Shown here: one piece after another, positions 16,205 to 64,000 of the stretch
Numbering within the stretch: position 1 is the first letter of the stretch
Layout: every line of letters starts with the position of its first letter
DNA from: Trichoplax sp. H2
Taxonomy: Eukaryota
DNA length: 64,000 nt
Direction: 5' to 3'
Assembly (NCBI GenBank): GCA_003344405.1
Contig: NOWV01000012.1
Location: 1 to 64,000 of the forward strand
The notes under the pieces: model-generated
What the model saw: the letters and a program-made list of their open reading frames with translations, nothing else
What the model was told of the DNA's origin: nothing
Database searches by the model: none
Made by a program: the position numbers and the translations under genes

Positions 16205-16897
16205 CTACTTGCGTTGAAATATATATTCAATAAAGTGATTCCATTTGGTTTCATCTGATTCACCATCATGACCAGCTCCACCAGCATGACTTGCAATTAA
16301 ATCGAAGCCCTTCTCAGCTAGCAAATCAAATGCTTTCTCTAAATGGCCATGCTTTAAGTAGAAACGACTAGAATAGCTATTATCACTTCGATCAGGATCT
16401 CGCGTTTCATTTAATGTATCTTCAAACACTTCACGGGTTAAAGTAACATTACCACAAACCAAAATTCGATGAATTTTACGAAATTTAACATCTGCCAATC
16501 CATCACGTCCAAAGGCGTAAGTCCCACGATAACTTAATGATAGAATGCCTTTTTGTCGCCCTATATTGGTTTTTTCGCGTAATGCTTCAATTAAGCCTTC
16601 AATTTTGTAATATTCAGCTTCACACAATAATCTTTCACGCTCAATAAATTCTTCCGGCAGACATAATTTCGAATTGCGTAAATAGTCTAATACGTAACGA
16701 AATAGTGCACCATCACGATCTATAAAATAACGGCCTCGCGCATCGCGCGCAATACGTTGTCTACCACTGAACATTGCACCTAACAATGATTTTGGATCTT
16801 TAACTAAGATTGATAGCGATGTTGTATATAGTTGGCCACCCACGTTTAGATCAATAATGGATGGAAATTGCTCAGAGCTAACTTGATTGACTTGCAT
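16205..16897 (-). CDS. KCTD8/12/16-like protein (T1/BTB domain + H1 domain, no H2), 230 aa, single coding exon
   Basis: FPSIIDLNVGGQLYTT, GRYFIDRDGALFRYVLDYLR (BTB). KFRKIHRILVCG..REVFEDTLNETRDPDR..YSSRFYLK..EYIFQR (H1). A splice acceptor and an in-frame TAA sit just upstream of the ATG, implying non-coding 5' exons. Confidence 0.92.
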   Translation of the reverse strand: MQVNQVSSEQFPSIIDLNVGGQLYTTSLSILVKDPKSLLGAMFSGRQRIARDARGRYFIDRDGALFRYVLDYLRNSKLCLPEEFIERERLLCEAEYYKIEGLIEALREKTNIGRQKGILSLSYRGTYAFGRDGLADVKFRKIHRILVCGNVTLTREVFEDTLNETRDPDRSDNSYSSRFYLKHGHLEKAFDLLAEKGFDLIASHAGGAGHDGESDETKWNHFIEYIFQRK

Positions 16898-42982: not shown

Positions 42983-43534
42983 TCAATCTAATTTCTTGGT
43001 CCTCCAAACACCACAAAGTTTAGCGCCAGTCCGTAGCGAAAGTATGTGAACTATAAATGCAATGACTATAAAGCTACAGCGTAGAATGATCGAGTAAGTG
43101 CCAAATACGGCAAACGTCGCAACTTTAACATCAGAAGGGGTACGGTCATTTATCCTTCGATACATGAGAAAACCATAATCTCGAGCACCTGCTATCAGTG
43201 GTCCAAGCCCAAGGCAGAGAGTACCAAATATGAATAATATCATCAAGCCAGAATTATTCCGAGATAACGCCAGTCGACCAATAAGAACGGGTACAATACT
43301 AAGCAGCCAAATATGCTGCCAGAGAGAGGCATTAATGCTTTGAGTAAGTGCATATGGTAAAATATACTCCACAACGATTACTCCTACGAGAAGAATCATG
43401 TAGATATCAGTAAAAAAGCTATAACTGCTTTTATACTCAACACTGCGTTTGTAATGATCGGCGACACGTTCACGATGTTTCCAGTCTGACCCATCGCTCC
43501 CTTTAATATTTCCGTGATGTCCACGACTCGCCAT
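42983..43534 (-). CDS. JAGN1: Protein jagunal homolog (ER membrane), 183 aa, single coding exon
   Basis: N-terminus MASRG..GSDGSDWKHRERVADHY..SVEYK, four hydrophobic segments, and a C-terminal KKLD dilysine ER-retrieval motif. Confidence 0.93.
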   Translation of the reverse strand: MASRGHHGNIKGSDGSDWKHRERVADHYKRSVEYKSSYSFFTDIYMILLVGVIVVEYILPYALTQSINASLWQHIWLLSIVPVLIGRLALSRNNSGLMILFIFGTLCLGLGPLIAGARDYGFLMYRRINDRTPSDVKVATFAVFGTYSIILRCSFIVIAFIVHILSLRTGAKLCGVWRTKKLD

Positions 43535-43965
43535 TACGATTGAGTATCTTTACTAAGGAAAAGGATACCACTAATTATAAGCTATAATTATTAATAAATA
43601 ATAATATTTTATAATAGCGTATCACCAATCAAAAGTGTACTCGATTGAAAACTGGAATTACTACAATTAACTCAATGCAGAAAGTGGGAACTGCGTTGGT
43701 ACTAGGTACTGTGCAATGCTGTTAATGCTGTTAAGCACAGTACAGTAATAATACTACAGTATGTATGATTTACAACAGTTCGCGATTGTACCATGCAGCC
43801 AAACAGATACAGAACCAGATTAGCAGTCCAGTACTATACGGACATTCGGAAATGCGGAGCCACAGACGCACGGACCGTCCGTCTTGTCACCTGGTCTAAT
43901 CTGTCCAATGACGGTGTCAAAGAACACGGACAGATGGAACTTGTAAACTACGCATGCCAATCGAC

Positions 43966-43979
43966 GTTACCATAGCAAC
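43966..43979. promoter_or_regulatory. RFX X-box GTTACCATAGCAAC upstream of the dynein heavy chain
   Basis: Fits consensus GTNRCC-N2-RGYAAC exactly; about 610 bp upstream of the dynein ATG. Confidence 0.8.
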
Positions 43980-44590: not shown

Positions 44591-47500
44591 ATGGATGATC
44601 GACATTGGTGGTTTGCTACAAAACTGCAAGCCTCATTTCGTATTGGTGGATACGATAAGCCGACACTATTGGAGGATTTTATTTGTGAATCAAGTACCTT
44701 AGAACATATTGGAAACTTTCTCGGGCCAAATGGGGTTTCTGTTTTATTCTTTTATTGTGAAAAACTCGATGAGACAAGGCTATCATCCAGGCGTTTACAC
44801 GTATCTTATACAGTGCATAAAGATATCGATTTTAACGATATGTTGATCTTATACTTCTTACGGGATAGCAATGACGAAGAAATACTACCACATAATATTG
44901 CAGACGAAGTATGCTGTGGAGAGTTATCTAGTGCTATTATAGCTAGCTTACAGACATTATTATCTGATAGCTATGCCCCTCTATTAAGAGTACGTAAAGA
45001 TTGGGGTCAATGTAGTGAAGATAATATATCACAGTTATTCACCAACTTCGATAAATTGATTACTGCATTAATCGATTCAGCCGATATTCTATCGTCAAAT
45101 AAATATATGCTAAAACGACCTGAAGCATCTGTTACAAACGATTTTAAGCTGAATCGTGCTGCAGTTGTTAACCAAACTATTGTCAGTGAGTTTGAGATTC
45201 TTGTTGCTGATTGGATTTCAACTATCGAAACAGTTCTTCAAAATCAAGGCGATGACAGGTAAAATATAATTATTCTTATTTCGTTAATGATAGCATGCAG
45301 TAATTGGTACAACTATAGCCCCTTGCCTATACCTTAGTTTAATATTAAAAGTATACATAACAGCATAAATTATGAATATGTCCTTAAAATATACTTTTTT
45401 TTCCTTTGTGACAACTATATCAATTTCTGATATATCTTCTTTGAAATGATTTAGCGGTGTCGATACAAATGCTGGTCCGCTCTCAGAGCTATACCGATGG
45501 AGACGTCGACATAAAATTTTTACTAATATTACAGATCAGCTAAAAGGAAAAGAATGTAAAGCAGTGATTAGTGTATTAATTACAGCAAAATCCAAATTGC
45601 TAAAACGTTGGAAAAATATCGATGTATGGTGAGTTGATGCCTATTTTGATGTAATTTGAGACTGTATACTTTAAAGCATAGAATAATGCTACCTCATATT
45701 GAACGAGTTTTACAAACATGAATTAACATAACATATATTAATTATATATATAAATAGCTAATGTTGATCAGGAAAAAATTAATATCTAAATCTTTTAGCA
45801 TTAAACATTTTTTATACAATATTGGATAATTGTTGTTCAGTAAAAATTACAGCACGAACAAAATTGCATTGAAATTTTTATTACGTAGTAATTAATCATT
45901 TTCTAGAGATCAGTTTTAATTGGCTGAAATAATAGAATTATATACGCAATATTAGGTTAAATTTTATCGATAGGAAATTTTATTTTTAAATTCTGAAATT
46001 TACCTCCAATTTGATTCATTAGCATTACTGAAGCCGTTAACGAAACCAAAGATAAAGTAAAATACTTGGAGTCACTAAAAAAATATATTGATCAACTTTA
46101 CCACAACAATTCACCCACACAAATTGCAAGTAATGTCCTACCTATGCTTTTCAATAATATTCGTCAGATGGACTCAATTTCTAGGGCGTATGCTCGAAGT
46201 GGATATCTTGGCTTATTCTTATCGAAGGTACGTAAATTATGTATATTGCTATGATAGATTTAAGTGAAACATTAATGTAGTGCAATATATGAGTGTTATC
46301 CTACATAATTGCGATACTATAGGTAAAGTTTTTGGACTACTAGCTGAAAATTAATTGCGATTTATAATTTCCTAACAAATAATTTCTGATATGGCAAAAT
46401 CATAGCTATTATTGCATTCTGTTAATCGACTCACATTTCAAATAATTGAATTGCATACTTATTAAATTAAATCTGTTTGGTACTACTTTAGATTTGCAAT
46501 CAAATGGTTGCCTTGTGCAAGGAGTATATTAGTGGAATTTCACTTAATGAGATCGAAATAGACTATGAACATTGGAAAAATCTTGAAGACTTGAAGAAAA
46601 TTTACGACGATCCTAGAGCTAGTGGTAAAAAACAAGCAGGGCATAAAAGTGCGACGATCTCTACTACTGAGAACCAAGACATGTTAGATAAATATTTGCC
46701 ACATAGGTTGCTTGCCTGCTTAGCATTAGCTAAATCTATCCGCGATTCAATACGTAATCTTCGAGACAGCCTAGGTACAGCAGCTTTTAGTACTGTATCT
46801 TCGGCATCGCATTTATCATCAATGCAAAATCAGCATAACCAAAATGCGACACCTGCCAAGTGGAAATCATCTGGACAATCATTAAATACAGCGCTTAATA
46901 TTGTTAAACGACTTAATTCTGTTAGTGAAGGAGGAACACCGTCAAATCAAATGCCAAATAGCATTGGAGTATCACTAAATGATGAAGATAGCATTATGTT
47001 TCATTTTGACCGTTTTTGCATCCGAGTACGTCATATTATAGGAATTATCCAAACTCTTGCGCAGTTTTCTCAGCTTGCAAGTCTAACTACTGGATTACCT
47101 CGTCTGCACAAACAGTTTAACGTTTCTGCTAGCATTTGGGGTGAGCAAGGTGTCTACGGCCATTGTATTACTATATTACATACCGGTAAAGAATCTGTTG
47201 CCGCTGTTGGTCTAGCTTACCGACATGTGCCTGCTCCTCACCAGATTACAAGCGTTGTAGAAGAAGAAGAAGACGATAATAATAGTGAGCGCTTATCTAC
47301 TCATGGGCAGTCTAACCCCTTAGGCCGAATCAAAGTTACAATTCCAGACAGTGAAGCTGGTAAAATAGAGAGTGCAGACGGATCACTAGATGACGAACCT
47401 ACCGAAAGTACCGAAGAAGATCAAGACTTTGAAGAAGAATTAAGCATCACTGGTACAATTAAAACTGTTATCAAATTTGCGAAGAAGTTACTACGTGATA

Positions 47501-50500
47501 CTGTTACAACAGAAGTTCTGCTAGATGTTGACAGCATGTATCGAGAGAGATTTGATAAAGCTTACGAACACGTTATGGCTATGATCAAGCATTTAGAACA
47601 GTATGTCGCTAAATATATCGAGGTATTTCGGAGTAAATCTTATCTTATTGAATAATATTTTAATTAGTAATCATGGCTCCATTGTAGACTTTCTGAATAA
47701 AATGTACACATACGATGAGCTTTCTCGGCATTGATATTAAATTGTATTTTACAGACTGTTATGTCTAAAAAGATTACTACACAGCATGCACTGGACATCT
47801 TGACGAGGTTCGTTATGTAACTATTAACTTAAAAATACTGTATATGATTGAATGTGATATTTTTAATTGTAGGTTTAATACAGTACAAAACCGAATGCAT
47901 ATCAGTACGATGTTGAAAGAAAAATTTTATGAGGCTTTCAATTGGTACGAGGAAGAGTTAGAAGAAGTACAAGACTTATACGAAAAGAATAAGGTAGCAT
48001 ATCGAGGCTATTTAGTCGTTAGCTCTCAAATCGATATTTAAAATAATAAATCAGAATTGATTAACTTGCCCACGTAAATATGATTAATCATAGGAAGAGC
48101 CACATATTGTTCGACATGCTCCTCCAGTTGCCGGAGCTATTAATTGGATTCGTCAGTTGTTACGAAGACTTGAGGAGCCTATGAAGATTTTTTGCGATAC
48201 TAAATCCGTCATGGCTGTAAAGGCAAGATAATATTAGATAGCTTTAAAAATTAGTTTGTTAAATTGCAAACGCATTATACAATATACAGATAATTCATGG
48301 AATATTTTCAAACTTATAGGATTCTACAAGAGTCATCAAGAATTACAACCGAATCGCATCCACATTGATTAAATTTGAAAGTTTATGGTTTAGTCAATGG
48401 AAGGCGCACATTGATAGTGCTAAACATGGTCTTAAGGTACCACTTTTGCTTCGTCATCCTAAAACTGGTGATCTAATCGTTAATGCTGACGAAAGGTAAC
48501 TCTACTCTTAGATATCATAGAGTAGGAAATATATTCCAGCAATTTACTTTTTTCTGTTAATTAGAGTTTCTCAAGTTATCCATGAAGGAAGATGGATGGC
48601 CAGGCTTAATATTCAGTTACCAGAAAATGCTGTCGCAATCCTATCTCAGGTTTAGTTGATTTTCCTGCTTTTCCTATTCTATAATTTTATGAATTTAAAG
48701 AGTTAGCATATAATATTTTAATCTTCTTCGTACTTGCATAGCAAAATTTATAAATATGTGTATAATTATGTATGTATAATTTTCTATTCCGCTCAAGGAA
48801 TCTCGATTTAAAAAATACAAGCACAATCTTGAAGCGGTACTTCACGAATTCAAACGCGTATGTCAAGATATACCGTTACCACTGCAACCATTATTTGAGA
48901 AACATACTGAAACCGTTATGCGCTATTTGTTGCCGGGCCTATCGACAGTAACATGGAATAGTATGAATATCGACGCTTATTTACATCATATTCATACTTC
49001 TACCAATCATCTAAAAGAAATTGTAGTCAAAGTCAATAATATTTTAATAAGCCGAGTTGATTGTGGGATAGCATCGGTAAAAAACGCCATCCTTTTCGAT
49101 ATGGATTCTATGTTTTCTGAAGAGTGGGTAAGTAGATTGTTTTTAATAAAATTTTTAAATTCCATCTTAAATCTAGTATAAGGAAGATCATTTACTTATT
49201 CGCGCTATCTACATCCTTTCTCTAGAGCATTATCGCGTTTCCTAAGTTGCAAATAAAGAATATTGAAGCTCGTAAGCAGGAGCTACTTTCTAAAATTTAC
49301 GAGGTTGAATCTGCGCTCCGGGATATTGTTAACATCATTACTGAAAATAACATTAATTCTCAACCATCGTTACAATACCAAGTTAATGGTAAAGGAGTGA
49401 TATCGCAATTAACGAAATCGATCAATAAAAACTTGCAGAGTCAATCTTTGCAGGATAGAAATAAAAGTAGCAACTCTTCGAGTTCAGCCCCGAATTATAA
49501 AATTGGTCCATTTAATACTAAATCCTCCAATATGTTCGAGCATTACGGAAAATTAATGCATGATGCTATTCTACATAGCATTAGCAAATCACTTTTTACA
49601 TATGCTGAAGCTCTTGGTTGCAAAATTAATTTTGTTAAGCATCCTACTCAGCTCAATGGTGACGCTATCGATAATTTTGGAAATTTAAATAAGGTTCCAA
49701 CAGTAATAATCAAAGATGAAGCTTCTAATCAAGAAGATATGGTTCTCAAACTTGATAATGCATCGCAAATTGTGGCTTATTCTGGAGCAGGTAATTGCAA
49801 TGTACTTCTGAGAATGCATACTTAATATTATTACTCGTCTTACACGGAAGTAAGGAAGCCTTTAATTTTATCATTAAATCGCGCCATTTGGCTAGATCTA
49901 ATAGTCTTATTACGAACTGCTCAATAACGTTAAATCTAGTCATAAATTAATATTATAGTTTGCTCCAATTAATGTTCGTGTAACTTTCAAAATAACAGTT
50001 ATTGCATCAGTTTTAAATAAACTATTCTTCCTGTTGATCATTATAGAACTAAAGAATGAGGCTCTTTTGAGATTTAATGTGGATATTAAATTCTCCATAC
50101 CTGATCTCGTAGTTGAACCAAAGCTGGAAGATGTGCAAACTGCTGTAAATCAAGTAGCTCATGCAATAATAGCGATATCACAAGATATTAAATGGACCAC
50201 AACACAACATGAGGAAAATGCATTGGCATTCAATTTAATTAGTAACGATAAGATTGTAACTGGTATAACAAAATTGATCTCTTCTACAATAAGATCATAT
50301 CAGCAAACAGTTCGTGATAAACTGAATTCATTCCGTCGATTCAATTTCTTATGGGCCAACGATATCCACGCAACCTTTAACCAATTTGTTAAATCGGGTA
50401 TTAGTACATCAGATTGTATGTCGGAGGTTGAGCGATTGCAAAGGATAGAGCGAGAAGTTGAAGATATCGATGATAAAATTGTTGTTGGTGCTATTAGCCT

Positions 50501-53500
50501 TGGTACACTTCCTGTTAGGAACTCACTACGTGGATTCGCTGCGGCATGGAAAGTTCAGTACGCATCATATATGCACGATAAAGCGAAGGTAACCAGCATT
50601 ATGATACTGTATAGTTGGATTACTTGGTTGTGGTAGTTCTCTTTTATGCTGATATCTAATCATCAAGTTAACTACAAGTAAAACTACCTACAAGATAAAA
50701 TCATCCTATAATTACGTTATTGTTTTCAAGCTGTAATTTTGTAAGGTCCTTAATTTGATCTGATTGTATACGCGTATTATTAAACTATATAGGGAGAATT
50801 AGATAAAATTATTGCATACAGGATGCACATAACTGATCGGTTAGCAAAGGATGTTTTTACATTGGATCAACTTAATGAGGCTCAGAAGTTGCTACAAGAG
50901 TTAAGCGACATGGAAAACACTATAGATGATGTCTTCCTACCAGTTGAAAGAATGTATAGCTTATTAAGGTACAGTCTCAACCTTAAATGAAATTCATTGT
51001 CAATCATCGTGTTACAAAATCGCCTTTATTTCTTACTTCAAATGCAACTGCAGTAGCTAAAATTTTTTCTTGTATTGGATTTCCTAGACAATTTAACCTG
51101 CGATTGCCAAGATCTGAAGTACAAGAAGTAAGAAATTTAAGAGAAGAGTGGCAAAAATTATTACTTTTAGCTGAAAAGGTATGTTGCAATACTATACCGT
51201 ATTCACACAGACGATTAATGAGCATACGTATACGGGAAAAGATTCGGACTAATATCCTGTTTATGCACGATGCGCAGGTACGATATCAACTTATGGTTAC
51301 ACACAGGACAGCCTTTGAGCAAGAGCTAGATAAGCAGATCAAGGTAACAGATTAGTTTGCTATCCGTATATGGTGACTTCCTATTTATTTTGTAACTGTT
51401 TATATTGGCTAACTAATATCATTATGAAATTATTCAATAATATAATTAGCGAGAAACGAATAAATTTATTCATTTACTTACATAACAGGCATTCGTCGTT
51501 GATGTAATTCAATTCCGCAATAGTTTTGATGCTCAAGGCCCCGCTATTCCTGGCATTAGGCCAGCGGAGGCTGTTAAGAGATTAATAGAATTTCAAGACG
51601 AATTTCAAAAGTATGACGAAAAGCGCCGAATTTTAGATGCCGTACAAAAACTATTTGGAAAACCGCCAGTATCATTTCCGGACTTGGACAAAACCGGAGA
51701 GGTAAATATATTACATTAGAATGACGTATTTCTACAAGTAGTACAATAATTGATACTTTTCCATAATTTTGATCTCTTCACACCTTACGTTTCAGGAATT
51801 GCATTTACTGGATTTATTATATAGTTTATTTCAGCGATTCTTAGCATTTGATGCCGAGTAAGTATTAGAGAAGCTAAGCATCTTATTAATGTCTAGAAAT
51901 ATAATTGATAGTAATTAAGTCTACTTTTCCAGTGCTGTTGTACAGATTCCAATATTAAGTCAAAGCATGTTTCATTCGTAGGTTTCGAGAAAGATTATGG
52001 GCAAAGGCGGACTTAGATAACGCTCATCGACAGGTTAAAACATAAGTTGCTACTACAGCACTGCGATAGTACCAATTTATAATATACGCAAAATAGCATA
52101 ATCAATCTCTTACTTAACTAAACTAAACTCGTACGCGCTCTAATAGATGGAAGTCTTCTGGAACGAATGTTTAAAACTTCCAGAACAAATCAAGGGTTGG
52201 TCTTCTTACAAGGAACTGAAAGGATTAATTGACGGCTACTTGGCTCTTTTCCCAGTGCTACACCGTCTTGCATCTAAAGTAATATTATTAATATAATAGT
52301 CTAGATAGATTCAAAAACTTAATCTTTATAATTAGTAAAGGTATCTTGATCATCTACGGTGTTATAATTTAAATACATACTGCAGATATTGCTATATGCT
52401 GTAATTATTAATAGATACTGCAAATAGTAATGCAATTACTAAATGTTCGCATTTATGCATATCACAATCAGCATAAAAGAGCCTGATAGCAATAATATTC
52501 AAGTATACCATCTTTGTCTTCAATAATTAATGAATCCAAGTACAAACATATATAATAACCCAGCAACTATCACTTATGTACGATAGGAAATACGTAATCG
52601 TCATTGGTTAGATGTCATGGTTGCAACAGGTTCATCCTTTCAGCTGGAAGCAAACGTTTTTAAATTGAAGCATCTGTTAGATATTGGTTTACTCAGGTAC
52701 GAAATATTTCATTTAAAAATTCGAACGATGCACTTACGTGTGATTATTGTATTAAATTTGCAGTTGTATGATGCAATGAATAAATTATATTTAATATAGA
52801 CATCAGAATGAAATTGGCGAAATTACTCGATGTGCTAGTCGAGAGTTAGAAATTGAAGAAACATTGAGGAACATAGAAGAGGAATGGACAGAACAAGTTA
52901 GTTAATGAAGGATCATGTTATATTTCTTAAGAATAAGTGATACGGGTACTAAATTTTTTTGCAATTTATGATAGGTCCTTGCTTTTGATGAATTTAAGAA
53001 TCGTGGGTTCTTATGTTTAAGCGCTTCAAATACTCAGACGCTGCTTGAGCAGTTGGATGACTCTCAAGTTTCGCTGGCCTCTATGCTAACTTCTCGTCAT
53101 ATTGGTCCTTTAAGAGATGAAGCAGCTTCCTGGGCAACAAAACTAAATAGTGTATCTGAGATTCTAGAATTGGTGAGCATAAAACAATTTTGTTTAAACA
53201 GCGGTGTTATCTAATCAAATTTTATTACAAAAATAATAAACGATCACCTGTAAGAAGTTCTAGAGTTGAAATCTAATGTTTTCAGCTTCATCAGCCTTCA
53301 TGACATTGAATTTCTATGTTTATAGTGGTTATCCGTTCAAGAGTTGTGGCTGAATTTAGAAGCAGTATTTTATCAGGCGGAAACAATCAAGGTTATAATT
53401 GGCACATCGTTAATAGCCAATTGCTGTTCCTTTAAGACATCTAATAAAAATTAACTTTCACAGGAATTACCGCAGGAGGCAAGACGATTTAACAGGATTG

Positions 53501-56500
53501 ATAGAAGTTGGAGCAGGCTTATGAAACAAGCTTACGAAATTAGAAATGTTTTACAGGTATGATGTTTTGACGAAGCTTATACAATGTGCAGATGCCATAA
53601 TAAACCTTCTTAAAGATATCTAGATAATCTTTATACCGACATAAAGATTAGCGAATTAAAATCTTGTCTATCCTAGTAGCACCTCAATTCAAGTTTTTTA
53701 CTTGTTCTGACAAAACTAGCAGTTACATATCTCAGATACAACATAATACTATGACTTACTTAGTCTTAGTTTTCGGTAATACATGCAAGTGACCTGAGAA
53801 AATTTATTGTAACCACTGAGGGTTAAATTTGGAATAACATTCTGATTTCTAGTGTTGTTTCCGCGGCGATGTCCCTAAATATACCGTGCTAAAGCACTTG
53901 CTGGAAGAACTAGAATTATGCTTCAAATCGTTGCTCTCTTATTTGGATCAAAAGCGCAGGGTAAATATTATTTTGCTCAAGACATCCTTTATATTAGGTT
54001 ATTTACAATATTATGTTATTAATCAATTCTTACTTAAATGGATTATAATAACAGGAATTTCCAAGGTTTTACTTTGTTTCCGATTCTATCTTACTATCTG
54101 TATTGCGATCTGCGCGTACACTTGATTCTGTAAGGCCGCATCTAAGGTAAACCGGCAGCTAGCTATGCCTGATACGCATTTCGATATTCGTCCTTAGCTG
54201 TCGAGAAGCTATACCGTAACTAATTAACATTATTATTCGTCGTAGATCTATCTTTGGTAATATCTCCAACTTAAAAATTAATACTGCTGCTCCAATATCG
54301 CGTAATAAGAAAGTTTTAGCGCCCTTGGTAAGAATGCATTAATAATCGGTTGAAATGGGAATTGTTAACTAAGCTATTTGTCATTGTATTGGTAATAGGA
54401 TCATCAATCAGAGCACAGTAATGCTCCATCGGCCGCTACTTTTCGTAAAAGAAGTAGCATGGATTTTATTCCTATTTCGCTAAAACGGCGTAGCAGTCAA
54501 GATATGATAAACATCCCATTTCATAGAAGCTCACAAAATGCCATTTCATCCGGAGTATCCATCGCCAATTCTGTTTCTGATGCAGACGGACTATCTGATT
54601 CCATTAGTAAAATTTACGCCGTTGTTTCACCTGAATGTGAAACCTTACAATTGTCAACTCAGGTAATATTTACTTTGCCGTCATTTTTACGGATTTATTG
54701 TTTTATTACTGGATATTGGCGTTTTTTATATGCTTACATAATAAATATAAAATTTTATCCTTAAATTTCAGGTACCGCTATCTGGTGGTGTTCAAGCCTG
54801 GTTAAATGCTTTGTCGACTTCGGTTGAGAAAACACTACTGGAATTAATAAATGATCAAGTCGACGATGTTCTTGCAATGACATCTATCGATGAATGGGCT
54901 TATAAAGTATGCTTAAAGAATTAGAATTAAAATTTTTATAAGCCTACGAATTAGTATTGTACTCTTGCTTTTCAATTAATAAGATAATACTTACAGTACG
55001 CTTAGTTACGGAATGAGTAAAATTATTTTAATCAAAAATGCGATATTAAGTCATAAGGAGTTATAGTAAGAATTTTTTGATTACTAACAGATTTTAATTT
55101 TATTTAGTATCCAGCTCAAGTTGCTCGTCTTGGTTTACAATATTATTGGACTAAGGAATGTGAGCAGGTAAAATATTCATTTGCTTATATATAATATATA
55201 TATATATTACGTAGATAGATCAATTCCATGTTCTCAATGAGCTACCAAGAAAATTCCTTGCGCTCATAGCAGTCCTTAAAAATTTTGACAGGGCATTACT
55301 GAGATTAGAACTGAAAGGAAATCTTTGAGTAATACTTCCAGGCGATTTTGGTCCTTTTTAAGTAAAACTACAGTGACCATTTCAAGAGTAAACTGGAAGC
55401 ACGTTGATGAACCTGTAACAAACGTACATCGTCTCCGTCTGGAGACATTACTAGCGGTACTAGAACTAATGCTACTCTTTTTATTTTTTACTTTTGCTAA
55501 AGTATAACATTGGAATTACTATTTACGGAAGTCTTACAAATCTTCCTTATACCTATTTTGCTAGTAGACTTAGGTAACAATTTTTATCTTCTTTTGTAGC
55601 ATGGCCTTTATATGCGGGATGTTCTAGATGACTTAGCCAAGAAGAAACTGCGTGAGCAGACTGACTTTGAATGGAAGAAAAACTTAAGATTTTATCACAT
55701 GAAAGAAGATTCCCATAAAGGTAACATAGCCTTCTTAAGCGATTTTGTTACGATTTGAAGAATAATTTATTATTTCTTATAACATTTTAGCACTTGATAA
55801 TGAACAAATTTTGAACATGATACGCATTGTGTAATCTGTCTTTATTTCACTGTCACTGTTTAACATCATTAGAAGAAAAGGTCCCCCAAATTTGGGTTCT
55901 TGACACAAAATTTAACTATGGTTTTGAGTTTTATGGATGTATGTCTCCTATTATTATGACGCCTTTAACAGATCGATGCTTCCTATCACTTAGCCAGGTA
56001 TTCGAATATAATAACTTGGATTAAATAATGAAGAGTAAAGAAATCACTAAAGTTTCTTGAGTAAAAAATAAAATATATGCGTACATAATTATAAATTAAA
56101 TCATTAAATAATTCTATTAAGGCTGTTTCAAATCATCGAGGAGCAGCACTTTGTGGCCCTTGGGGCACCGGAAAAACGGAAACTATCAAGGTACAGAGTG
56201 GATACCTACTGCCTTCGTTTTATTTTTAAACATAACTTTGTTTAGAGACATTTTCGTAATATTTAAATTTTTACTCCATAGGGATTTGCTCATATGTTAG
56301 GTGTCTATCTAGTAGCCTTTAGCTGTTCTTTACAATCTGAACCATCCAGCTTAATTCGAATTATCCATGGTCTTGCACAGGTATATATATTATTATAGTA
56401 ACCAATTCTATCCAATTCTGTACAGTACACGTCAGTGTAGGGCCTAAATGAAAAGTATCATATTTCAGGATGGTTGTTGGGGCTGTTTCGATGATTTTCA

Positions 56501-59500
56501 TAGAGTTCAAGTCTCTACAATTTCTGTACTATCACATCACTTACAAATAATTATGAATGCACTGCGAACGAAAGAAATTTTTTGCACTATGCCGGGAGGC
56601 ATCGAGGTAAATCAGAATATTTATAAGTAATCCCATTATCAGGGCTTTTAGTACCTTATATTTCGTAAAATATATCAGTATGTTATAAATATAAATTTTT
56701 ATTTATTTTCTTAACTTAGATTACGATAAACCGAAAAGTTGCCTTCTTTATGACATATGATACTTCATATGGAAACCAAGGTGATCATCTATTACCGAGT
56801 GATATCCGAACCCTCTTTAGACCTATTGCCTTGACTGCTCCTGATGTTGGTTTAATTCTTCGAGCCTACTGCACTTCTAAAGGCTTCAAAGCGCCACGAG
56901 TTTTGGCAGATAGAATCAAACTGCTATTAAGTATTTCTAAGCATCTAGTGTAAGTATTATGACATATATTCGTTTTCAAGCTGATAGTTATAATTAAGTA
57001 AAGTATGATATTTCGTGCAATGCCTGATGCTTTATTTCGTACAATTTTCTTTAAATCTGACGAACATAACTCTGCAACCCTTACAGAAAAAGTAATAATC
57101 AACATAAGATTAGTTTATCATCCATTCTGTCATGTATCAGCTACGCAGCTAAGCGACGTGATGATTACCAAGCCTTGCAAAATAACCCTAAAATGGGTGA
57201 CATTGCTAGATCGAATAGCGCTTCTTCAACGCAGAATCTAGGCGCAAGTAAGCAAAGACATAACCATTAAAGTACAGAGATAATTATCTCATCACATTTC
57301 CTTTTAATATATAATTGCAATATATCCGATTTCAGGCGGTGGTGGATTAAGACCTCGAGCTGAAACTACCAGGAAGAATACTCCTTCACAACAATTGTCT
57401 CCAGCAATACGTGGAGAACATATGTTTGTTTCACACGCTATCCAAGATCTAATTGTACCTCAGATCTCTCCAGAGGTATTAAATACTGCTCTTATTAGAT
57501 AATGCTTCTAGTTAAACGTTTTCTAATAAATTAAGGCGATAATTATAAATTATGGGAAACACAGATGATTTCCAAACTTTGTATTGGATTAATTTTATCA
57601 TAATTGATTCAATTCACGAATAATTTTATGCATTGCAGTACACTATGCTTACATCGATATTATATAGATATTTCTATTGCACCTTTCCTAACATACCTAA
57701 CTTGGATGTATTATATGGAGTACTTGCATAAATATGAAAAATCTTGCTCTTCTGAAAGACTCTTAATTTGCTAATGTTGTGTTTAATTCTTCTTTCAATA
57801 TAAAATTAGAATTTCGCTGTTTTTAACAGCTTACTCCATGATATATTCTATTCTTCCTCTGATCCATACAAACTGGCTGGTTTCCATGACGGTAGTGGTA
57901 CTGTTGAAGAGGCATTCATGCAACAGACTCAAAAAAGCGGTCTACATTTTCACGCTCCGTGGGTATCAAAAGCTATGCAATTGCATAAACTATCGAAAGT
58001 TCATCATGGTATGTAAAGAATGTATAACAAATAAAATTTATTAAAGTAGTAAAACTAATGCATTGCAAGTATGAAGATGTGTACGATCATATAAACCATA
58101 ATTTTCAACCAGGAATAACCTCTATAATTCTAATTGCCTTGTTATAATTGCATAAATAGGAGTAGTTGTTGCTGGACCACCTGGTAGTGGAAAATCGACA
58201 ATGATTTCTACACTTATCGATGCGTTATCCCTATGCTCGAAAAATGATCAAGGAGATGGCAGTAAAAAGCATATCCATCGATTGCAAAAGATTAATCCAA
58301 CTGCAGTATCAAATTTATCGCTAATGTTCGGTCGGTTGAATGCATCTAACGATTGGGAAGATGGTATATTTACGGCGTTATGGAGAAAAGCCAATAAAAA
58401 TTTAGCAACAACAACGTGGTTATGTTTAGATGCAACGCTAGCACCGTATTGGGCCGATAATTTGAACTGCATTATCGGTAATGGCCGATCTTTGGATCTT
58501 TTAAATGGAGAACGCTTATTCCTAAGTGATAACGTCAAAATATTGTTTGAAACTCATGATGTTAGTAATGCTTCCCCGGCAGTATTTGGACGTACTGGCA
58601 TAGTCTACGTTGATGATGGCGTATTAGGTTGGGTGCCTTTATCACATGCGTGGTTAGCATCAAGAAACGATCAGGAGATTAAAGTCCTACAGCCAGTCTT
58701 TAGTGCAATTATTTCAGATGTAACCAATTTTATTAGTTACGACTGTCAAGTTATGGTTAAAGTATGTGAAATTGGCTTATTTCAAACGTGTTTATCGTTA
58801 TTAACCGCCTTATTAGAAGAACAAGCCGAGGTAATTGCCGATCTGCATATTGAACGATTATTTCTGTTTTCGGTTATATGGTCTTATGGTATGATTATGA
58901 ACGATCATGATCGTGGACGATTTAGTAATTTAATGAAAAGTCTATCGACAGCTTTACCAGATTACGATCTAGGAATATCAGTATTTGATTATTATGTAGA
59001 TGAATCAGGTGAATGGGATCCATGGACATCACGCGTGCCAGAATTTTCACCTGATTCAATGGATTTCTTGGGTGAAACTTTTATTGATACTGTTACAACA
59101 GTTAAAATTAGCCGTTTAATGGAATTGTCATTTAGTTCTGGCCGTAATGTTTCAATTATTGGACCACCAGGATGTGGTAAAACAGTGACTGTTAACCGTT
59201 TCTTAGATCAGCAAGATGGTTCAAGCATGGTTACAAAACGTATTGTTTTCTCTGGGACTTCCAGTGCCCACGATTTGCAACATTTTATAGATGAGAATGT
59301 TTATCATCGTCAAGGCTTCGTATATGGTGCTAAAGATGGCAAGAAATTATGTTTATTCGTTGATGATCTTAACCTACCAACATCCAATAGCGACAAAACA
59401 ATACAAGAGAGCCATGAATTATTGCGTCAACTATTGGATGATAAGTTAATTTTCAATTATAACAAAATTGGCGATTATCGAGTGATTGAAAATTTACAGG

Positions 59501-62500
59501 TGATTGCTACCGCTACGTCTTCATCATCATCCACTATTAACACTACAACATCAACTATGAAGTCTGTCTTACCAGATCGATTAAAACGCCATTTTTCTAT
59601 TTTTTATTTACAAGAACCAACTGGTAATGCTCTAAATAGTATTATGTCAGGCATAGTTCACGCTAATCTTTACCTCTATGAAAGTGTTCTGAATCCAGAC
59701 TTAATGAATACATTAACTCAGGCATCATGCGATGTTTTAGCACGCATAAAATCAGTTTTACGACCATCACCGGTACCTGGTCGATATCAGTATTCTTTTA
59801 ATTTACGTGATCTTAATAGAGTTATTCAAATGTTAAAAAGATTATCCAATCAACCCAGAATTGATGAATTATCAATTGTATCCTTATGGAAGCATGAACT
59901 TGATCGTACTATACGTGATCGTATTTGTCGCAACACTGATTTAAATTGGTATGACGGAACCGTTGTGAAAATCCTTGAGGAATACTTCCCTGATATTTCC
60001 AAGGATGAATTAATACAAGATTATATTACATTCAAATTGGAACCCATACGTAGTCGTACACATACAGGAGCTACCGTTAAAGATTATATTCAGCCAATCA
60101 CTAATATGAGTGAAATTATGGGATGGATTCGTGATCAAATGATTACTTACAATGAGGACTTTGGTAATCGCAATTTAAGCGTTATATTATCGGATTACAT
60201 CGTCGCTCATGTCGTTCGTTTATTACGAATTTTAAGCTTTAATAACAGGTTAGTTGCAGTTTACCTTTATTGGTATAATGTTAAAAATAATATTATGACT
60301 CATCTAATTTTTGTAATTTGTTATAGAAGTAATCTTATTAAGGGTGTCGTATAGACTTATCTCTTGTCTTAGATTAATTACTAAGTCGGGATAGTATAGG
60401 TGTAGTTTAGTTAAGTAATTTTTGTATAGTACTTTTATTCTACATTAAACTTTTATTGATAATTTAATTCTTTATGCATTTTCTTATGTGATATTAATTA
60501 ACTTTACAGAGGTAATGCTGTCTTAGTCGGACAGGTTGGTAGCCATCTTTCAACTTACGTCCGTTTTGCATTATATGTTTGTGGTATTCCACAACATCAT
60601 GTTGATACATCATCCGGAAATACGTTTTATGATGGATTACGCTCAGCTGTTCGATTAACTGGCGCAGAAGGAAAGCGATTAGCTATTGTATTAAAAGCTA
60701 ACGATTTAAAAAATAGTGTTATTATTGATGCCGTCAACAGCATCTTAATTAGTGGTGAATGCTCGAAATTATTTTCTAATGACGAATTAGATGGCTTATT
60801 GCAAGCACTGTCTCACACCTTGAAACGCAATTATTCCAATATGGATACTAATCCAATGGATTTCTTTATCTCACGCGTTAAATCCAATCTACATATTATA
60901 ATAACTATACCGCCAACCAACAATTTATTAAAAGTCGCCGCCAATCAATTTCCCGGCTTTATATCGTGTTGTCATATGGATTGGCTAATGGACTGGTCAA
61001 AGCCATCGTTAATAAGTGAAGCAACGCATTATATTGCTGAATATAGCATCATGGAACATAGTGCTGAAGATATACGAGGTAAGGTCGTCCATAGTATGGC
61101 CGATATCCATGTATTTATGTTGAAGGAGTGTGATCAACTTCCATGGGCGATGGATAAATACAACGCTAATCAAAGTAATGATCCTAAACAATGCTTACCG
61201 TTTGCTAAAAATGCATTAGTTGAAAGGATAACTACAAAATATGATAAAAAATGGCAGAATCGTAAAGACGTCTTTGTTGGGCCAAATACATACCGTCGAT
61301 TCATGAATGCTTTTAAGAAAATCTATACAACGAAACATCAAGAAGCTAATACAACTATACTTAAATTACGTAAAGCATTACAGACGCTAGAAAGTACGAA
61401 AATCGAAGCTGAATCAACGGCATCGGATATTGAAAAGATGAAATATAATTTACGCTTAGCGACTGATCGTTCTGCTTCATTACTACAGCAATTAACGATA
61501 CGAATAACACAATTAGAGAAATTGAAGGCTAAATTAGGTACAGGTGGCAATGTATTAGATGCATTCGCGACTATCAATGAGTTAGAGATGGCATCAGAAG
61601 TAGAATCAGTGCCGCTACCCTTAGATGATGAAATGGATGAGCTGGATACTGAATTTGAAAAATTACGTCAAATTAAATTACGTAAAAAGCATGATAAGTT
61701 AATGGAAGACATTACTCGAGCACAAGAAGAAGTCGATGAAGCGAAGAAAGCCTTAAGTGGTGCTAAAAATCAAATACGCCATTGGAGAAACAAAATTGAT
61801 CGTAGTTGCGTTGAACGTTTGCGTGTATTCCAAAATCCACCTTCGCTAGTCGGCACAGTTATGGAAATGACGATGGTATTATTAGGAAAGTTGGAACCAT
61901 CACCAGCTTACTCAATTAACTATAATACATCTAGCTCTAATATCGCTTCAAATACGGGCAATAATTACGACGACGCATATTCATCAATACCGCGTGGCTC
62001 TAGTTTTGTAGGAAAATCGAAACGTGGACGTGATCACACTAATAATGCATCCAATCATAATCGTGTCGACCGTGATCTATGGAAATCAATTCAATTAGCT
62101 ATGACTGATTCACAAAAATTTATTGATGCTCTATGGAATATACAGTGGGAAGAAGGTTTAAGTCCTGACAAGTTGGCCATTATGGAAAATTACTTAGGCA
62201 AAAAATCACCTACTAACTTAGCACAAACAAATAATCAATTAACGGGACTAAGCATTACTGAAGAAATGAATCAAAATCACCACCATCATCACCCCATTAC
62301 ATCAAATTTACTGGCATCGGGTAGCACATTTTCTCCACGTCGATTATCAAGCTCTACATCAGTAAGTTTTCAAACAGGAACACAACAAACAGGTGCTGTA
62401 CCACCTCCTAATATTACTATTGCAGCTGCTAAATATTCATCGGAAGATGCTGCTATCTTAGTTGCATATATTATGGCATTAGTTGAATATACATATCAGT

Positions 62501-64000
62501 ATTCACCTGTACGTGAGAAAATTGAGCGATTACAAGAATTATTGATTGAAAAAGACGAAGATGAAAGGCGTGCTGCGGAAGAAGAGGATGAAGTTGAACA
62601 AGAGGAAGAGCAACGAGAAGAGATACAAATTGAAGATGAATTGTCTATCGATGATTACGACCGTATTGAAGAAGAAGCACACCAGTTGCAGATTGAATAT
62701 GACCGCGCAGCTGTCGAAAAGCATATTTTACAAAAGGAATACGATATTAATACACAACGATTGCAAGCAGCTATGGAAGCCATCAATAGTCTTGAAACAC
62801 AAACAAAGTTATGGCAAGATCTAGTCGATGAGAATACATCATTAGATTTACTACTAGCTAATTGTGTTTGTGCTAGTGCATTTTTAGCCTATTTAGGACC
62901 GCTCGGTGCCGATGCACGATCAAATTGCGCTGCTGAGTTTATGCGAGCGTGTATGAGGAATAAATTACCAGTAGCTAAAAAAGCGATATTTACGGATGTT
63001 ACCCTAGCTGAATTTGTATTAGGCCAAGCTAATTTAAGGCGTATTGAAGTAAGTGAAAGGCTTCCTAAAGATATTTTATCGCAAGAAAACTTCTGCATCT
63101 TCAAATACCAAGTTTATTGTAATTCATGGATATTGTTATGTGATCCACAACGTATCGCATCCACATATGTCGCTGCTAATGTTGACGACATTACTATAGT
63201 TCGCTATAAAGAATTACGTAATCAACTAGATACATGTTTAAATGATGGTAAGGAAATACTAATTACTGACGTAGACACCAAGAGTATACTTGAAGATAAA
63301 CGCTTTTCGATACTATTGCGCCATGCTGATCTATTTGATAAAGAGCGTGAAACATTTAAAATGATGATTGGTGATCATGAAGTTGAATGTAATCCACAAT
63401 TTAGAATGACATTATCAACGTCTTGTCTGCCTATGAATGTACCAGATGAGTTGGCATCTCAATTAAGTGTAATTGAATTATCACATTCAACCCAAGGTCT
63501 CGAGGAGTTATTATTGGATTTCTTTATGCAAAAAGAGAAAACGCGCATTGATGAAGATAGCACACAAATCGCTGAAGAAATGATCGCTATCTATAATCGT
63601 TTGGAAACGATTGAGCAAAATATGCTAGAATTATTATCATGCAATAATAAATTACTCCACGATCTGACGATGACTAAAAAATTAACCTCATTAAAGAAAG
63701 CTTACGATGAAGCTATTGAAAATCAAGCTAGAGTCAAAGTTAACGAAGATAACATCATTAATACACGGCAGCATTATCGACCTGTAGCGAAACGCGGTGC
63801 AGTCCTATTTAATGTCTCCAAGCAAATGGCATTAGTAAATCCAATGTATCAGATATCATTAGATCAATTTTTGAACATGTATTCAACATCGATATTGCAT
63901 TCAGATAGAACTGTTGTTAAAGCAGTCGTTGATCGTCTAACACAATTAGTCTTCTTTTCAATCGCGCGTGGCTATTTCGAAATTGATCAATTTTTATATG
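44591..64000 (+). CDS. Divergent axonemal dynein heavy chain, DNAH5/DNAH8 (outer-arm gamma)-like; about 42 exons in the window, 3' end truncated
   Basis: Tail GPLSELYRW..KSKLLKRWK..ITEAVNETKDKVKYL and PPVAGAINW; linker EIRNRHW, WLSVQELWLNLEAVF, FPRFYFVSD; AAA1 GPWGTGKTET (56155); AAA2 GPPGSGKST; AAA3 GPPGCGKT..LFVDDLNLP..FNLRDL; stalk/MTBD FQNPP; AFLAYLGP; YRPVAKRGAVLF..NPMYQISL. The last exons are 58160-60248 and 60510 to beyond 64000. Confidence 0.93.

What the first reader, a model, noticed from the sequence alone, without database searches (positions are those of the whole stretch)
56122..57247. Dynein AAA1 lacks three core catalytic residues: candidate pseudo-motor
Seen: AAA1 keeps Walker A (GPWGTGKT). 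Walker B reads WGCFDDFHR (GAT at 56493-56495) instead of WGCFDEFNR. Sensor I reads FFMTYDTSYG (GAT at 56759) instead of FLTMNPGYA. Sensor II reads NNQHKISLSSILSCI (TCA at 57118) instead of QVHYDFGLRNILSVL. Established: AAA1 is the main hydrolytic site of dyneins and these Glu, Asn and Arg residues are near-invariant. Inference: the chain may bind nucleotide but hydrolyse it poorly, acting as a structural, brake or sensor dynein. The open frame, intact splice sites and X-box argue against a pseudogene. DNHD1 is a precedent for degenerate dynein-like genes, but this tail looks DNAH5/8-like.
Basis: partly seen in the sequence, partly recalled or inferred. Interest (0 to 1): 0.85.

Follow-up and report, generated by a model that had tools for sequence, protein, structure and literature searches.

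The report
Known non-motile dynein DNAHX ortholog
This is an expressed, intact copy of DNAHX, a recently described animal dynein heavy chain that has lost its motor chemistry, so the odd catalytic site is real but already explained.

Summary
The AAA1 exons at 56122-57247 keep the P-loop (GPWGTGKT). They carry Asp for the Walker B Glu (GAT 56493), Asp for the sensor I Asn (GAT 56759) and Ser for the sensor II Arg (TCA 57118). All 41 canonical DNAH5/8 rows have Glu and Arg, and 40 of 41 have Asn. Spliced RNA contigs from three runs reproduce the exons, and four runs show no difference at these codons.

The gene (44591 to the window end; 5245 aa in all) is not an odd DNAH5/8. It sits in a clade (SH-aLRT 100) with XP_041462850, the type protein of DNAHX. 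Chai et al. (2025 preprint) describe DNAHX as a non-motile offshoot of the DNAH5/8 outer-arm heavy chain, with degenerate AAA1, trapped ATP, a disrupted stalk/MTBD and an AAA4S insert. The window protein shows the sequence-level hallmarks.

Its three substitutions are common DNAHX states, in 29, 12 and 21 of 83 rows. The pseudo-motor reading is therefore supported, but it is already published for the family.

Small additions: the AAA4 P-loop Lys is absent in all 81 DNAHX rows, and DNAHX probably equals Kollmar's class-12 dyneins.

The parts
44591..64000 (+). DNAHX-type dynein heavy chain gene. It has 42 exons in the window, encoding residues 1-4432 of the 5245-aa protein P0175, and runs off the 3' end of the window.
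   Evidence: tblastn of P0175. Exact-match exon walk. The family N-terminus MDERHWW aligns at 44591.
43966..43979 (+). X-box-like site GTTACCATAGCAAC, 612 bases upstream of the ATG. It lies between a Jagunal-like ORF (42983-43549, minus strand) and this gene.
   Evidence: The consensus was recalled from memory. There were 6 strand matches in the window against 2.6 +/- 1.65 expected, and 5 of 100 shuffles reached 6, so the site is not significant on its own.
56122..56190 (+). AAA1 exon carrying Walker A GPWGTGKT (56155-56178). The P-loop Lys and Thr are kept.
   Evidence: (joints 55997|56122 and 56190|56282).
56469..56606 (+). AAA1 exon carrying Walker B CFDDFHR (56484-56504). Asp (GAT 56493-56495) replaces the catalytic Glu.
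56720..56949 (+). AAA1 exon carrying the sensor I loop FMTYDTSYG (56747-56773). Asp (GAT 56759-56761) replaces Asn, and the Arg of canonical GYAGR is also absent.
57087..57247 (+). AAA1 small-domain exon carrying the sensor II stretch KISLSSILS (57106-57132). Ser (TCA 57118-57120) replaces Arg. A family-specific insert starts here.
57160..57413 (+). DNAHX-specific insert in AAA1S (residues about 2431-2486, across the intron 57248-57335). It ends in the conserved motif RKNTPSQQLSPAIRGEH.
   Evidence: The motif pattern occurs in 39 of 64 long DNAHX rows and 0 of 41 canonical rows; the non-matching rows printed carry variants of it.
58174..58197 (+). AAA2 P-loop GPPGSGKS, intact. The conserved AAA2 Arg (VFGRTG, 58582-58599) is kept.
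59161..59184 (+). AAA3 P-loop GPPGCGKT, intact. Walker B FVDDLN lies at 59356-59373, as in canonical axonemal chains.
60529..60555 (+). AAA4 degenerate P-loop GQVGSHLST in place of GVGGSGKQS. Leu sits at the Walker A Lys position.
   Evidence: (Lys in 0 of 81 DNAHX rows; Lys in 35 of 36 canonical rows, Arg in the other).
61150..61258 (+). Insert in AAA4S at the site of the DNAHX pre-sensor-II insert (residues 3483-3519). The helix segment LPFAKNALVERITTKY is conserved, and the part before it is shorter than in sea urchin.
   Evidence: AlphaFold2 predicts a helix at model residues 231-243, but with pLDDT below 50.
61609..61708 (+). Insert interrupting stalk coiled-coil 1 (residues 3636-3669).
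   Evidence: Model residues 345-375 have pLDDT below 50 and lie between helices 260-342 and 377-428.
61912..62401 (+). Microtubule-binding domain with two low-complexity inserts (residues 3737-3799 and 3833-3900). The first MTBD helix, NPPSLVGTVMEM, lies at 61834-61869.
   Evidence: (no PF12777 hit). Model residues 469-516 and 565-631 have pLDDT below 50.

Best explanation
The gene is the ortholog, in a non-bilaterian-like lineage, of DNAHX. DNAHX is an animal-specific paralog of the DNAH5/DNAH8 outer-arm dynein heavy chain that has given up motor activity.

Shown here:
- It belongs to the DNAHX clade.
- It is spliced and expressed.
- It keeps the AAA1 P-loop and the Walker B Asp that binds Mg.
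- It lacks the Walker B Glu, the sensor I Asn and the sensor II Arg.
- It lacks the AAA4 P-loop Lys.
- It has interrupted stalk helices, two disordered MTBD inserts and the AAA4S insert.

Inferred from the sea-urchin cryo-EM work and from general AAA+ knowledge:
- AAA1 binds ATP as a fixed cofactor and does not turn it over.
- The head stays in the pre-powerstroke shape and binds microtubules poorly.
- The DNAH5/8-like tail lets it pair with another heavy chain in an autoinhibited phi-type particle. This may hold or carry axonemal dyneins during cilium assembly.
For: Family membership:
- Over AAA1-AAA3 of the Acanthaster family member used as query, family members score 739 bits or more and canonical DNAH5/8 597 bits or less. 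The window's own protein P0175 scores 1099 bits at 41% identity.
- P0125 in that set is XP_041462850.1, the type DNAHX.
- In a 53-row tree of the AAA2-AAA3 exon, all 31 DNAHX rows, including the window, form one side of a branch with SH-aLRT 100 and stem length 1.09. That branch sits in a 99-supported group with DNAH5/8.
- Length is 5245 aa, against a DNAHX median of 5264 (50 rows) and a canonical median of 4660 (30 rows).
- Inserts shared with five other DNAHX lie in the tail, linker, AAA1S, AAA4S, CC1, MTBD and C-terminus.
- Pfam finds AAA_8 and AAA_9 with 640 residues between them and no PF12777 stalk hit.
- The AlphaFold2 model has mean pLDDT 73 and breaks CC1, CC2 and the MTBD at the inserts.

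AAA1 states:
- DNAHX rows have Glu 43, Asp 29 and Asn 5 of 83 at the Walker B position.
- They have Asn 34 and Asp 12 of 83 at sensor I.
- They have Arg 5 and Ser 21 of 83 at sensor II.
- On the tree, the sensor II Arg is lost in 30 of 31 rows (2 changes). The Walker B Glu needs at least 5 changes and the sensor I Asn at least 4.
- AAA1 is the best conserved module in canonical chains (83% between a ray DNAH5 and an insect DNAH8). It is among the least conserved in DNAHX (36-41%), where AAA2 is the best (51-55%).

Expression and integrity:
- Three runs from two studies hold one contig each with 8 GT..AG joints at the annotated exon ends.
- All 5 exonic differences among the runs are synonymous third-position changes.
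- There are no alternative AAA1 exons in the window.

Mechanism in the family: PMC11785096, Results and Discussion read.
Against: - No enzymology, structure or localisation exists for this protein. The mechanism is carried over from one sea-urchin ortholog described in a single preprint, which is not peer reviewed in the library I could search.
- That ortholog keeps the Walker B Glu and the sensor I Asn, so its pocket differs in detail from this one.
- Asp at the Walker B position could still support slow hydrolysis.
- The AAA2 conserved Arg and the AAA2 and AAA3 P-loops are intact, so some nucleotide-driven change is not excluded.
- The AAA4S insert is about 20 residues shorter here than in sea urchin, and it is modelled with low confidence.
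- The tallies count database clusters, including partial models and isoforms of the same species. They are not independent lineages.
- The tree used a quick search on one exon's worth of sequence.
Confidence: 0.85

Rival explanations
1. A slow or specially regulated motor. AAA1 still hydrolyses ATP at a low rate, with Asp acting as a weak base, or AAA3 drives a cycle. The chain would then act as a brake or tension sensor on the axoneme rather than as an inert scaffold.
For: The P-loop Lys and Thr and the first Walker B Asp are kept. The AAA2 conserved Arg is kept, and the AAA2 and AAA3 P-loops are intact, with the AAA3 P-loop closer to the GxxGxGKT form than in canonical DNAH5/8. The DNAH5/8-like tail suggests an axonemal site (Kollmar 2016 passages).
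Against: Three hydrolysis residues are missing at once. Constraint on AAA1 is relaxed across the family. The stalk and MTBD are interrupted. Sea-urchin DNAHX showed only ATP at AAA1 and no post-powerstroke class in 3 mM ATP (PMC11785096).
Confidence: 0.1
2. A decaying gene (pseudogene, or on its way to one) whose AAA1 changes are neutral damage.
For: Key catalytic residues are lost and many low-complexity inserts are present.
Against: The frame is open over 4432 codons across 42 exons. Transcripts are spliced in three runs. All 5 exonic differences are synonymous. Orthologs of similar length occur from cnidarians to frogs, with 40-55% identity across the motor modules.
Confidence: 0.02
3. A lineage-specific degenerate copy of canonical DNAH5/8, or a sequencing or assembly error at the three codons, rather than a DNAHX member.
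For: The best solved-structure match is human DNAH5 (1.2e-96). Many public family members are labelled DNAH5-like or DNAH8-like.
Against: The tree and the bit-score gap place it with the type DNAHX. The three spliced contigs and the unspliced contigs of a fourth run, from three studies, cover the codons without any difference.
Confidence: 0.02

Closest known systems
DNAHX (Chai, Suchenski Loustaunau, Zheng, Yang, Zhang; bioRxiv 2025, PMC11785096; type XP_041462850 of Lytechinus variegatus)
   Same: It falls in the same clade and has about the same length. It has the same kinds and sites of inserts (tail, CC1, CC2, two in the MTBD, AAA4S). The sensor II Arg is lost, AAA1 motifs are degenerate, and the tail resembles DNAH5/8.
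   Different: The sea-urchin protein keeps the Walker B Glu and the sensor I Asn, has Val in the P-loop (GVGKT) and Lys at sensor II. The window protein has GTGKT, Asp for Glu, Asp for Asn and Ser for Arg. Its AAA4S insert is shorter. It branches outside the bilaterian DNAHX clade.
DNAH5 / DNAH8 (outer-arm heavy chain; called OAD-alpha in the preprint and gamma in Chlamydomonas and Kollmar's class 3)
   Same: It is the closest canonical class. The tail is alignable (28% identity), and the order of the six AAA modules is the same.
   Different: Canonical chains have invariant GPAGTGKT, DEFNR, MNPGYAGR and FGLR motifs. They also have an AAA4 P-loop Lys, a PF12777 stalk (precomputed lists), about 4660 aa, and AAA1 as their most conserved module.
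Class-12 dynein heavy chains of Kollmar 2016 (PMC5100056)
   Same: [quoted passage not shown] All of this fits this family.
   Different: The identity of the two groups is my inference. The preprint does not use the terms class-12 or DHC12. Kollmar's sequence lists are in supplements that I could not open.
DNHD1 (human orphan dynein heavy chain; Kollmar's class 11)
   Same: It is a dynein heavy chain with a poorly conserved AAA1 and many inserts, and it is thought to be non-motile and to act in cilium or flagellum assembly (PMC11785096 Discussion).
   Different: It is a separate lineage, and the preprint states there is no sequence homology with DNAHX. No DNHD1 sequence was fetched or compared here.

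Membership tests
DNAHX | Groups with XP_041462850 and apart from DNAH5/8 and the other heavy-chain classes | tested here: met
   31 DNAHX rows, including the window and the type protein, form one branch with SH-aLRT 100. Bit scores are 739 or more for the family and 597 or less for canonical chains. The type protein was identified.
DNAHX | Unusual length of about 5270 aa, caused by inserts along the whole chain, including the tail | tested here: met
   P0175 is 5245 aa. The DNAHX median is 5264 and the canonical median 4660. Tail inserts at residues 383-641 are shared with five other DNAHX.
DNAHX | Inserts in stalk CC1 and CC2 and two disordered inserts in the MTBD (pre-H3 and H5) | tested here: met
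   Alignment to DNAH5 leaves 256 query residues opposite 119. Insert blocks lie at 3636-3669, 3737-3799 and 3833-3900. There is no PF12777 hit. In the model, CC1 breaks at 345-375, CC2 at 693-708 and the MTBD at 469-516 and 565-631, all with pLDDT below 50. Assigning the MTBD inserts to pre-H3 and H5 is by position only.
DNAHX | Pre-sensor-II insert in AAA4S (beta-hairpin plus alpha-helix) that binds the C-terminal cap | tested here: inconclusive
   An insert lies at the same site in all six DNAHX aligned, and its helix segment is conserved. The window's copy is about 20 residues shorter before the helix and is modelled at pLDDT 34-45. Contact with the C-terminal cap was not modelled, because the cap lies beyond the window.
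DNAHX | [quoted passage not shown] | tested here: met
   The sensor II Arg is absent in 78 of 83 rows, and the window has Ser there. The window's P-loop differs from the canonical one (GPWGTGKT against GPAGTGKT) but keeps Thr where sea urchin has Val.
DNAHX | ATP trapped at AAA1, only the pre-powerstroke state, and a phi-particle heterodimer (dynein-X) | not testable with these tools
   These are known only from cryo-EM of sea-urchin sperm dynein (PMC11785096).
Canonical DNAH5/8 (outer-arm motor) | Catalytic AAA1 (DEFNR, MNPGYAGR, FGLR) and a standard stalk/MTBD | tested here: not met
Kollmar class-12 dynein | Class-3-like tail with a divergent head and a stalk lacking a typical MTBD | tested here: met
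   The tail is 28% identical to DNAH5 over 1603 aligned columns. Precomputed Pfam for P0175 lists DHC_N1 and DHC_N2. There is no PF12777 hit. A direct sequence match to Kollmar's class-12 set was not possible because the supplements are closed.
DNHD1 | Orthology to human DNHD1 | not tested
   No DNHD1 sequence was fetched. No listed hit or 9 is named DNHD1.

The most novel reading that the evidence does not exclude
DNAHX is the same lineage as Kollmar's class-12 dyneins. Its unidentified partner in 'dynein-X' would then be the class-13 heavy chain, whose tail resembles the beta outer-arm chain, as Kollmar suggested in 2016.

The loss of the AAA4 P-loop Lys (0 of 81 rows) and of the sensor II Arg would be the founding lesions of the family. 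The Walker B Glu and sensor I Asn decayed later and repeatedly.

In this early-branching animal the chain, now stripped of every AAA1 hydrolysis residue, is still expressed and under purifying selection. This would mean that the non-motile 'template' role is ancestral to animals and is not tied to sperm of external fertilisers.
Probability: 0.2. Interest if true: 0.55.

Novelty: already known. Interest (0 to 1): 0.28.

Why it matters
The same conclusion was reached experimentally for this family in 2025.

For the field, the value is modest:
- It gives a well-supported, expressed DNAHX ortholog that branches outside bilaterians.
- It shows that the Walker B Glu and the sensor I Asn were lost several times within the family, whereas the sensor II Arg and the AAA4 P-loop Lys were lost at its root.
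- It offers a likely link between the DNAHX name and the older class-12 classification.

Tried and rejected
- The whole genome of the window is not held. I therefore could not ask whether the same organism also has canonical DNAH5/8 or a class-13 chain.
- Earlier scan notes held nothing for this genome.
- The first AAA1 alignment used a sequence anchor that failed for 24 of 53 proteins. I replaced it with a BLAST-anchored alignment of 83 + 41 rows, in which one protein (P0007) had no AAA1 hit.
- A strict pattern for the AAA1S insert motif matched 34 of 64 long rows, and a looser one 39 of 64. The non-matching rows printed carry variants, so the pattern undercounts.
- The X-box was tested with a consensus recalled from memory and is not enriched. 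I do not use it as evidence.
- I looked for alternative AAA1 exons that would restore the motifs. tblastn with a canonical AAA1 found only the annotated exons, and other hits had E of 2.6 or more.
- The first structure job was too large and was not counted. A 15-row alignment was used instead.
- I did not fold AAA1 itself, because it is spliced from eight exons.
- RNA depth figures from contigs were not used to judge expression level.
Full report
**1. What is in the sequence**

The region 55800-58300 holds short exons with GT..AG borders. Read in frame they give AAA1 of a dynein heavy chain:
- ...TPLTDRCFLSLSQ | AVSNHRGAALCGPWGTGKTETIK | GFAHMLGVYLVAFSCS...GLAQ
- DGCWGCFDDFHRV... | ITINRKVAFFMTYDTSYGNQGD...
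- ...KSNNQHKISLSSILSCI...

Codon look-up places the motifs as follows:
- GPWGTGKT at 56155-56178.
- GAT (Asp) at 56493-56495.
- GAT (Asp) at 56759-56761.
- TCA (Ser) at 57118-57120.

A protein returned by the homology search with no source name, P0175 (5245 aa), is the window's own annotated product. Its residues 1-4432 map to 44591-63999, in 42 exons found by exact matching. It has exactly this AAA1 sequence.

**2. Are these the catalytic positions?**

I aligned the AAA1 region of 83 family rows and 41 canonical DNAH5/8-type rows. One further protein, P0007, had no AAA1 hit.

| Position | Canonical rows (41) | Window |
|---|---|---|
| P-loop | GPAGTGKT in almost all rows; Lys and Thr 41/41 | GPWGTGKT; Lys and Thr kept |
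| Walker B Glu | 41/41 | Asp |
| Sensor I Asn | 40/41 | Asp |
| Arg of GYAGR | 40/41 | Asp |
| Sensor II Arg | 41/41 | Ser |

The window also keeps the first Walker B Asp. The roles of these residues (Glu as catalytic base, Asn and Arg as gamma-phosphate sensors) are general AAA+ knowledge that I recall; I did not test them here.

**3. Is it real and expressed?**

Of the 21 public runs listed, 17 hold part of the stretch. I laid four of them.
- X8 and X9 are on record as RNA-Seq and come from one study. X4 comes from another study. Each holds one long contig (8424, 9836 and 7979 letters) that lies on the stretch in eight pieces.
- The eight joints are all GT..AG and sit at the annotated exon ends: 55997|56122, 56190|56282, 56380|56469, 56606|56720, 56949|57087, 57247|57336, 57475|57810 and 58008|58160, after the shifts the tool states.
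- X1, from a third study, is unspliced and covers the introns.
- All four runs cover the three codons and show no other letter there.
- Nine single-letter differences and one 1-base deletion are listed. Five are exonic and all five are synonymous third-position changes. The other four and the deletion are intronic.
- Contigs cannot give expression levels or exclude rare isoforms.
- tblastn with a canonical AAA1 finds no second set of AAA1 exons in the window.

**4. What family is it?**

- The large AAA2-AAA3 exon matches human DNAH5 best among solved structures (1.2e-96, 327.7 bits).
- It matches a set of invertebrate, fish and frog proteins labelled 'DNAH5-like', 'DNAH8-like' or 'gamma chain-like' far better (up to 739 bits and 47% identity).
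- I then searched with AAA1-AAA3 of one of them, among proteins of 1827-5814 aa. This gave 855 hits at E of 1e-30 or less, of which 120 were listed. There is a clean gap: the family scores 739 bits or more at 34-91% identity, and canonical DNAH5/8 scores 597 bits or less at about 28%.
- Family members are about 5150-5450 aa long. They come from echinoderms, hemichordates, molluscs, an annelid, nemerteans, a brachiopod, amphioxus, tunicates, cnidarians, an acoel, sturgeon, bowfin, coelacanth and many frogs.
[quoted passage not shown] Its type protein, XP_041462850, is my P0125.
- In a tree of 53 rows over the AAA2-AAA3 exon (714 columns, quick IQ-TREE, LG+G4), the 31 DNAHX rows, including the window and the type protein, form one branch. 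Its support is SH-aLRT 100 and its stem length 1.09. It lies inside a 99-supported group with DNAH5/8.
- The window protein lies outside the 99-supported bilaterian DNAHX clade, nearest to cnidarian members. The tool warned of long branches for the acoel row and one metagenome row.

**5. Does it have the DNAHX hallmarks?**

I read the abstract, the whole Results, the Discussion and the figure legends of the preprint. I did not read its Methods or supplements. It defines DNAHX by these features:
- a length of 5272 aa;
- origin from the DNAH5/8 chain;
- disordered inserts throughout the chain;
- inserts in CC1, CC2 and the MTBD;
- a pre-sensor-II insert in AAA4S that holds the C-terminal cap;
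- non-conserved AAA1 motifs with ATP trapped;
- a phi-particle heterodimer.

What I found here:
- Length is 5245 aa. The DNAHX median is 5264 over 50 rows, and the canonical median 4660 over 30 rows.
- Insert blocks relative to five canonical chains are shared with five other DNAHX. They lie at residues 383-641 (tail), 1948-1994 (linker), 2431-2486 (AAA1S), 3483-3519 (AAA4S), 3636-3669 (CC1), 3737-3799 and 3833-3900 (MTBD), and 4922-4969.
- Pfam finds AAA_8 and AAA_9 in the last exon, 640 residues apart, with no PF12777 stalk match.
- Against human DNAH5, CC1 and CC2 align, but 256 residues stand opposite 119.
- An AlphaFold2 model of that exon with 14 relatives has mean pLDDT 73.2 and pTM 0.53. 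Its low-confidence loops fall exactly at these inserts. They interrupt CC1 (345-375) and CC2 (693-708), and there are two in the MTBD (469-516 and 565-631).
- The AAA4S insert is present and its helix segment is conserved. It is about 20 residues shorter than in sea urchin and is modelled at low confidence, so I call that feature inconclusive.

**6. How typical are the three substitutions?**

State counts among the 83 DNAHX rows:

| Position | Counts |
|---|---|
| Walker B | Glu 43, Asp 29, Asn 5, other 2, gap 4 |
| Sensor I | Asn 34, Ser 16, Asp 12, others |
| Sensor II | Ser 21, Gln 17, Ala 11, Lys 10, Arg 5, others |

The window's three states are therefore each common in the family. For example, all frog, sturgeon, coelacanth and tunicate rows read DD at Walker B.

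On the tree the picture is as follows:
- The sensor II Arg is missing in 30 of 31 DNAHX rows. Two changes are needed, so it was lost once on the stem and is present again in one frog row.
- The Walker B Glu needs at least 5 changes.
- The sensor I Asn needs at least 4 changes.

Rows are 90%-identity clusters and include partial models and isoforms, so these are not counts of species.

Domain by domain, AAA1 is the best conserved module between canonical chains (83% between a ray DNAH5 and an insect DNAH8). In DNAHX it is among the least conserved (36-41%), and AAA2 is the best (51-55%). Of 90 AAA2-AAA3 columns that are nearly invariant in 22 non-DNAHX dyneins, the window keeps 59.

**7. Other nucleotide sites**

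- The AAA2 P-loop (GPPGSGKS) and the AAA3 P-loop (GPPGCGKT) are intact.
- The conserved AAA2 Arg in the ATVSRxG stretch is kept. I take it to be the finger acting on AAA1; that assignment is recalled, not tested.
- The AAA4 P-loop reads GQVGSHLST in place of GVGGSGKQS. Lys at the Walker A position occurs in 0 of 81 DNAHX rows (Leu 79, Met 2). In the canonical rows it is Lys in 35 of 36 and Arg in one.
- I found no mention of this in the preprint's Results or Discussion. The term 'AAA4 site' occurs 0 times in its main text. Its supplements may cover it.

**8. Mechanism**

Shown here:
- ATP-binding residues are kept at AAA1.
- Three hydrolysis or sensing residues are gone.
- The AAA4 P-loop is dead.
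- The stalk and MTBD are interrupted.
- The tail resembles DNAH5/8.
- The gene is expressed and shows only synonymous polymorphism.

Inferred from the sea-urchin structure and its authors' model:
- ATP sits at AAA1 without turnover.
- The head is fixed in the pre-powerstroke form.
- Microtubule binding is weak.
- The chain pairs with another heavy chain in a phi particle and may hold or carry axonemal dyneins during assembly.

A slow-motor or brake role is the main rival and is not excluded.

**9. Prior art and novelty**

- 'DNAHX' occurs in two records of the library, which are two copies of the same preprint. A search for 'dynein-X', 'non-motile dynein' and 'phi particle' from 2024 on finds nothing else.
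- Kollmar 2016 (PMC5100056) was read as passages plus one whole short section. [quoted passage not shown] They first appear in Holozoa, and he suggested that they pair with class-13 chains. This fits DNAHX.
- The preprint cites Kollmar but uses neither 'class-12' nor 'DHC12'. The equation of the two groups is my inference and needs his supplementary lists.
- The finding is therefore a correct rediscovery of a known family.

**10. Verdict**

- Novelty: already known.
- Interest is low to moderate.

Noticed in passing
window 60529-60555 (P0175 residues 3276-3284): The AAA4 Walker A Lys is replaced by Leu (GSGKQS becomes GSHLST). Lys is absent in all 81 DNAHX rows aligned and present in 35 of 36 canonical rows. 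This is a cleaner family marker than any AAA1 change. It is not mentioned in the preprint's main text as far as I read and searched.
   Followed up: yes
window 57160-57413 (P0175 residues about 2431-2488): The DNAHX-specific insert in the AAA1 small domain is mostly low complexity. It ends in a short conserved motif (here RKNTPSQQLSPAIRGEH; elsewhere RK..TPNPMT.A.K.EH), preceded by an SR.S..S stretch. A loose pattern matches 39 of 64 long DNAHX rows and 0 of 41 canonical rows. It could be a docking or phosphorylation site.
   Followed up: partly
P0171, P0173, P0174, P0177, P0178 (frog DNAHX rows): Five frog rows carry Arg again at the sensor II position (..FSLRSML), while the other frog rows have Gln or Lys. 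On the tree this needs a second change after the loss on the family stem.
   Followed up: partly
window 59161-59184 and family rows: The AAA3 P-loop of DNAHX (GPPGCGKT or GPPGSGKT) is closer to the standard GxxGxGKT than that of canonical DNAH5/8 (GEQGTAKT in 24 of 40 rows).
   Followed up: no
window 43966-43979: An exact match to a recalled X-box consensus (GTTACCATAGCAAC) lies 612 bases upstream of the start codon. It sits in the gap between a minus-strand Jagunal-like ORF (42983-43549) and the dynein gene. Two more one-mismatch sites lie at 681-694 and 48875-48888. The count is not above chance.
   Followed up: partly
window 1-43600: Other genes were seen as Pfam hits on long ORFs: an ATG11 / ATG17-like gene on the minus strand (3833-6498), an endonuclease/exonuclease/phosphatase family member (12465-13304), a KCTD8/12/16-type BTB protein (16205-16900, minus strand), two trypsin-like proteases (28166-28966 and 33191-33955), an SLC35F-like carrier (39532-40155) and Jagunal (42983-43549, minus strand).
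   Followed up: no
literature: PMC5100056 against PMC11785096: DNAHX looks like Kollmar's class-12 dyneins of 2016. He proposed a class-12/class-13 heterodimer. The preprint leaves the second heavy chain of 'dynein-X' unidentified and does not mention class 12 or 13.
   Followed up: partly
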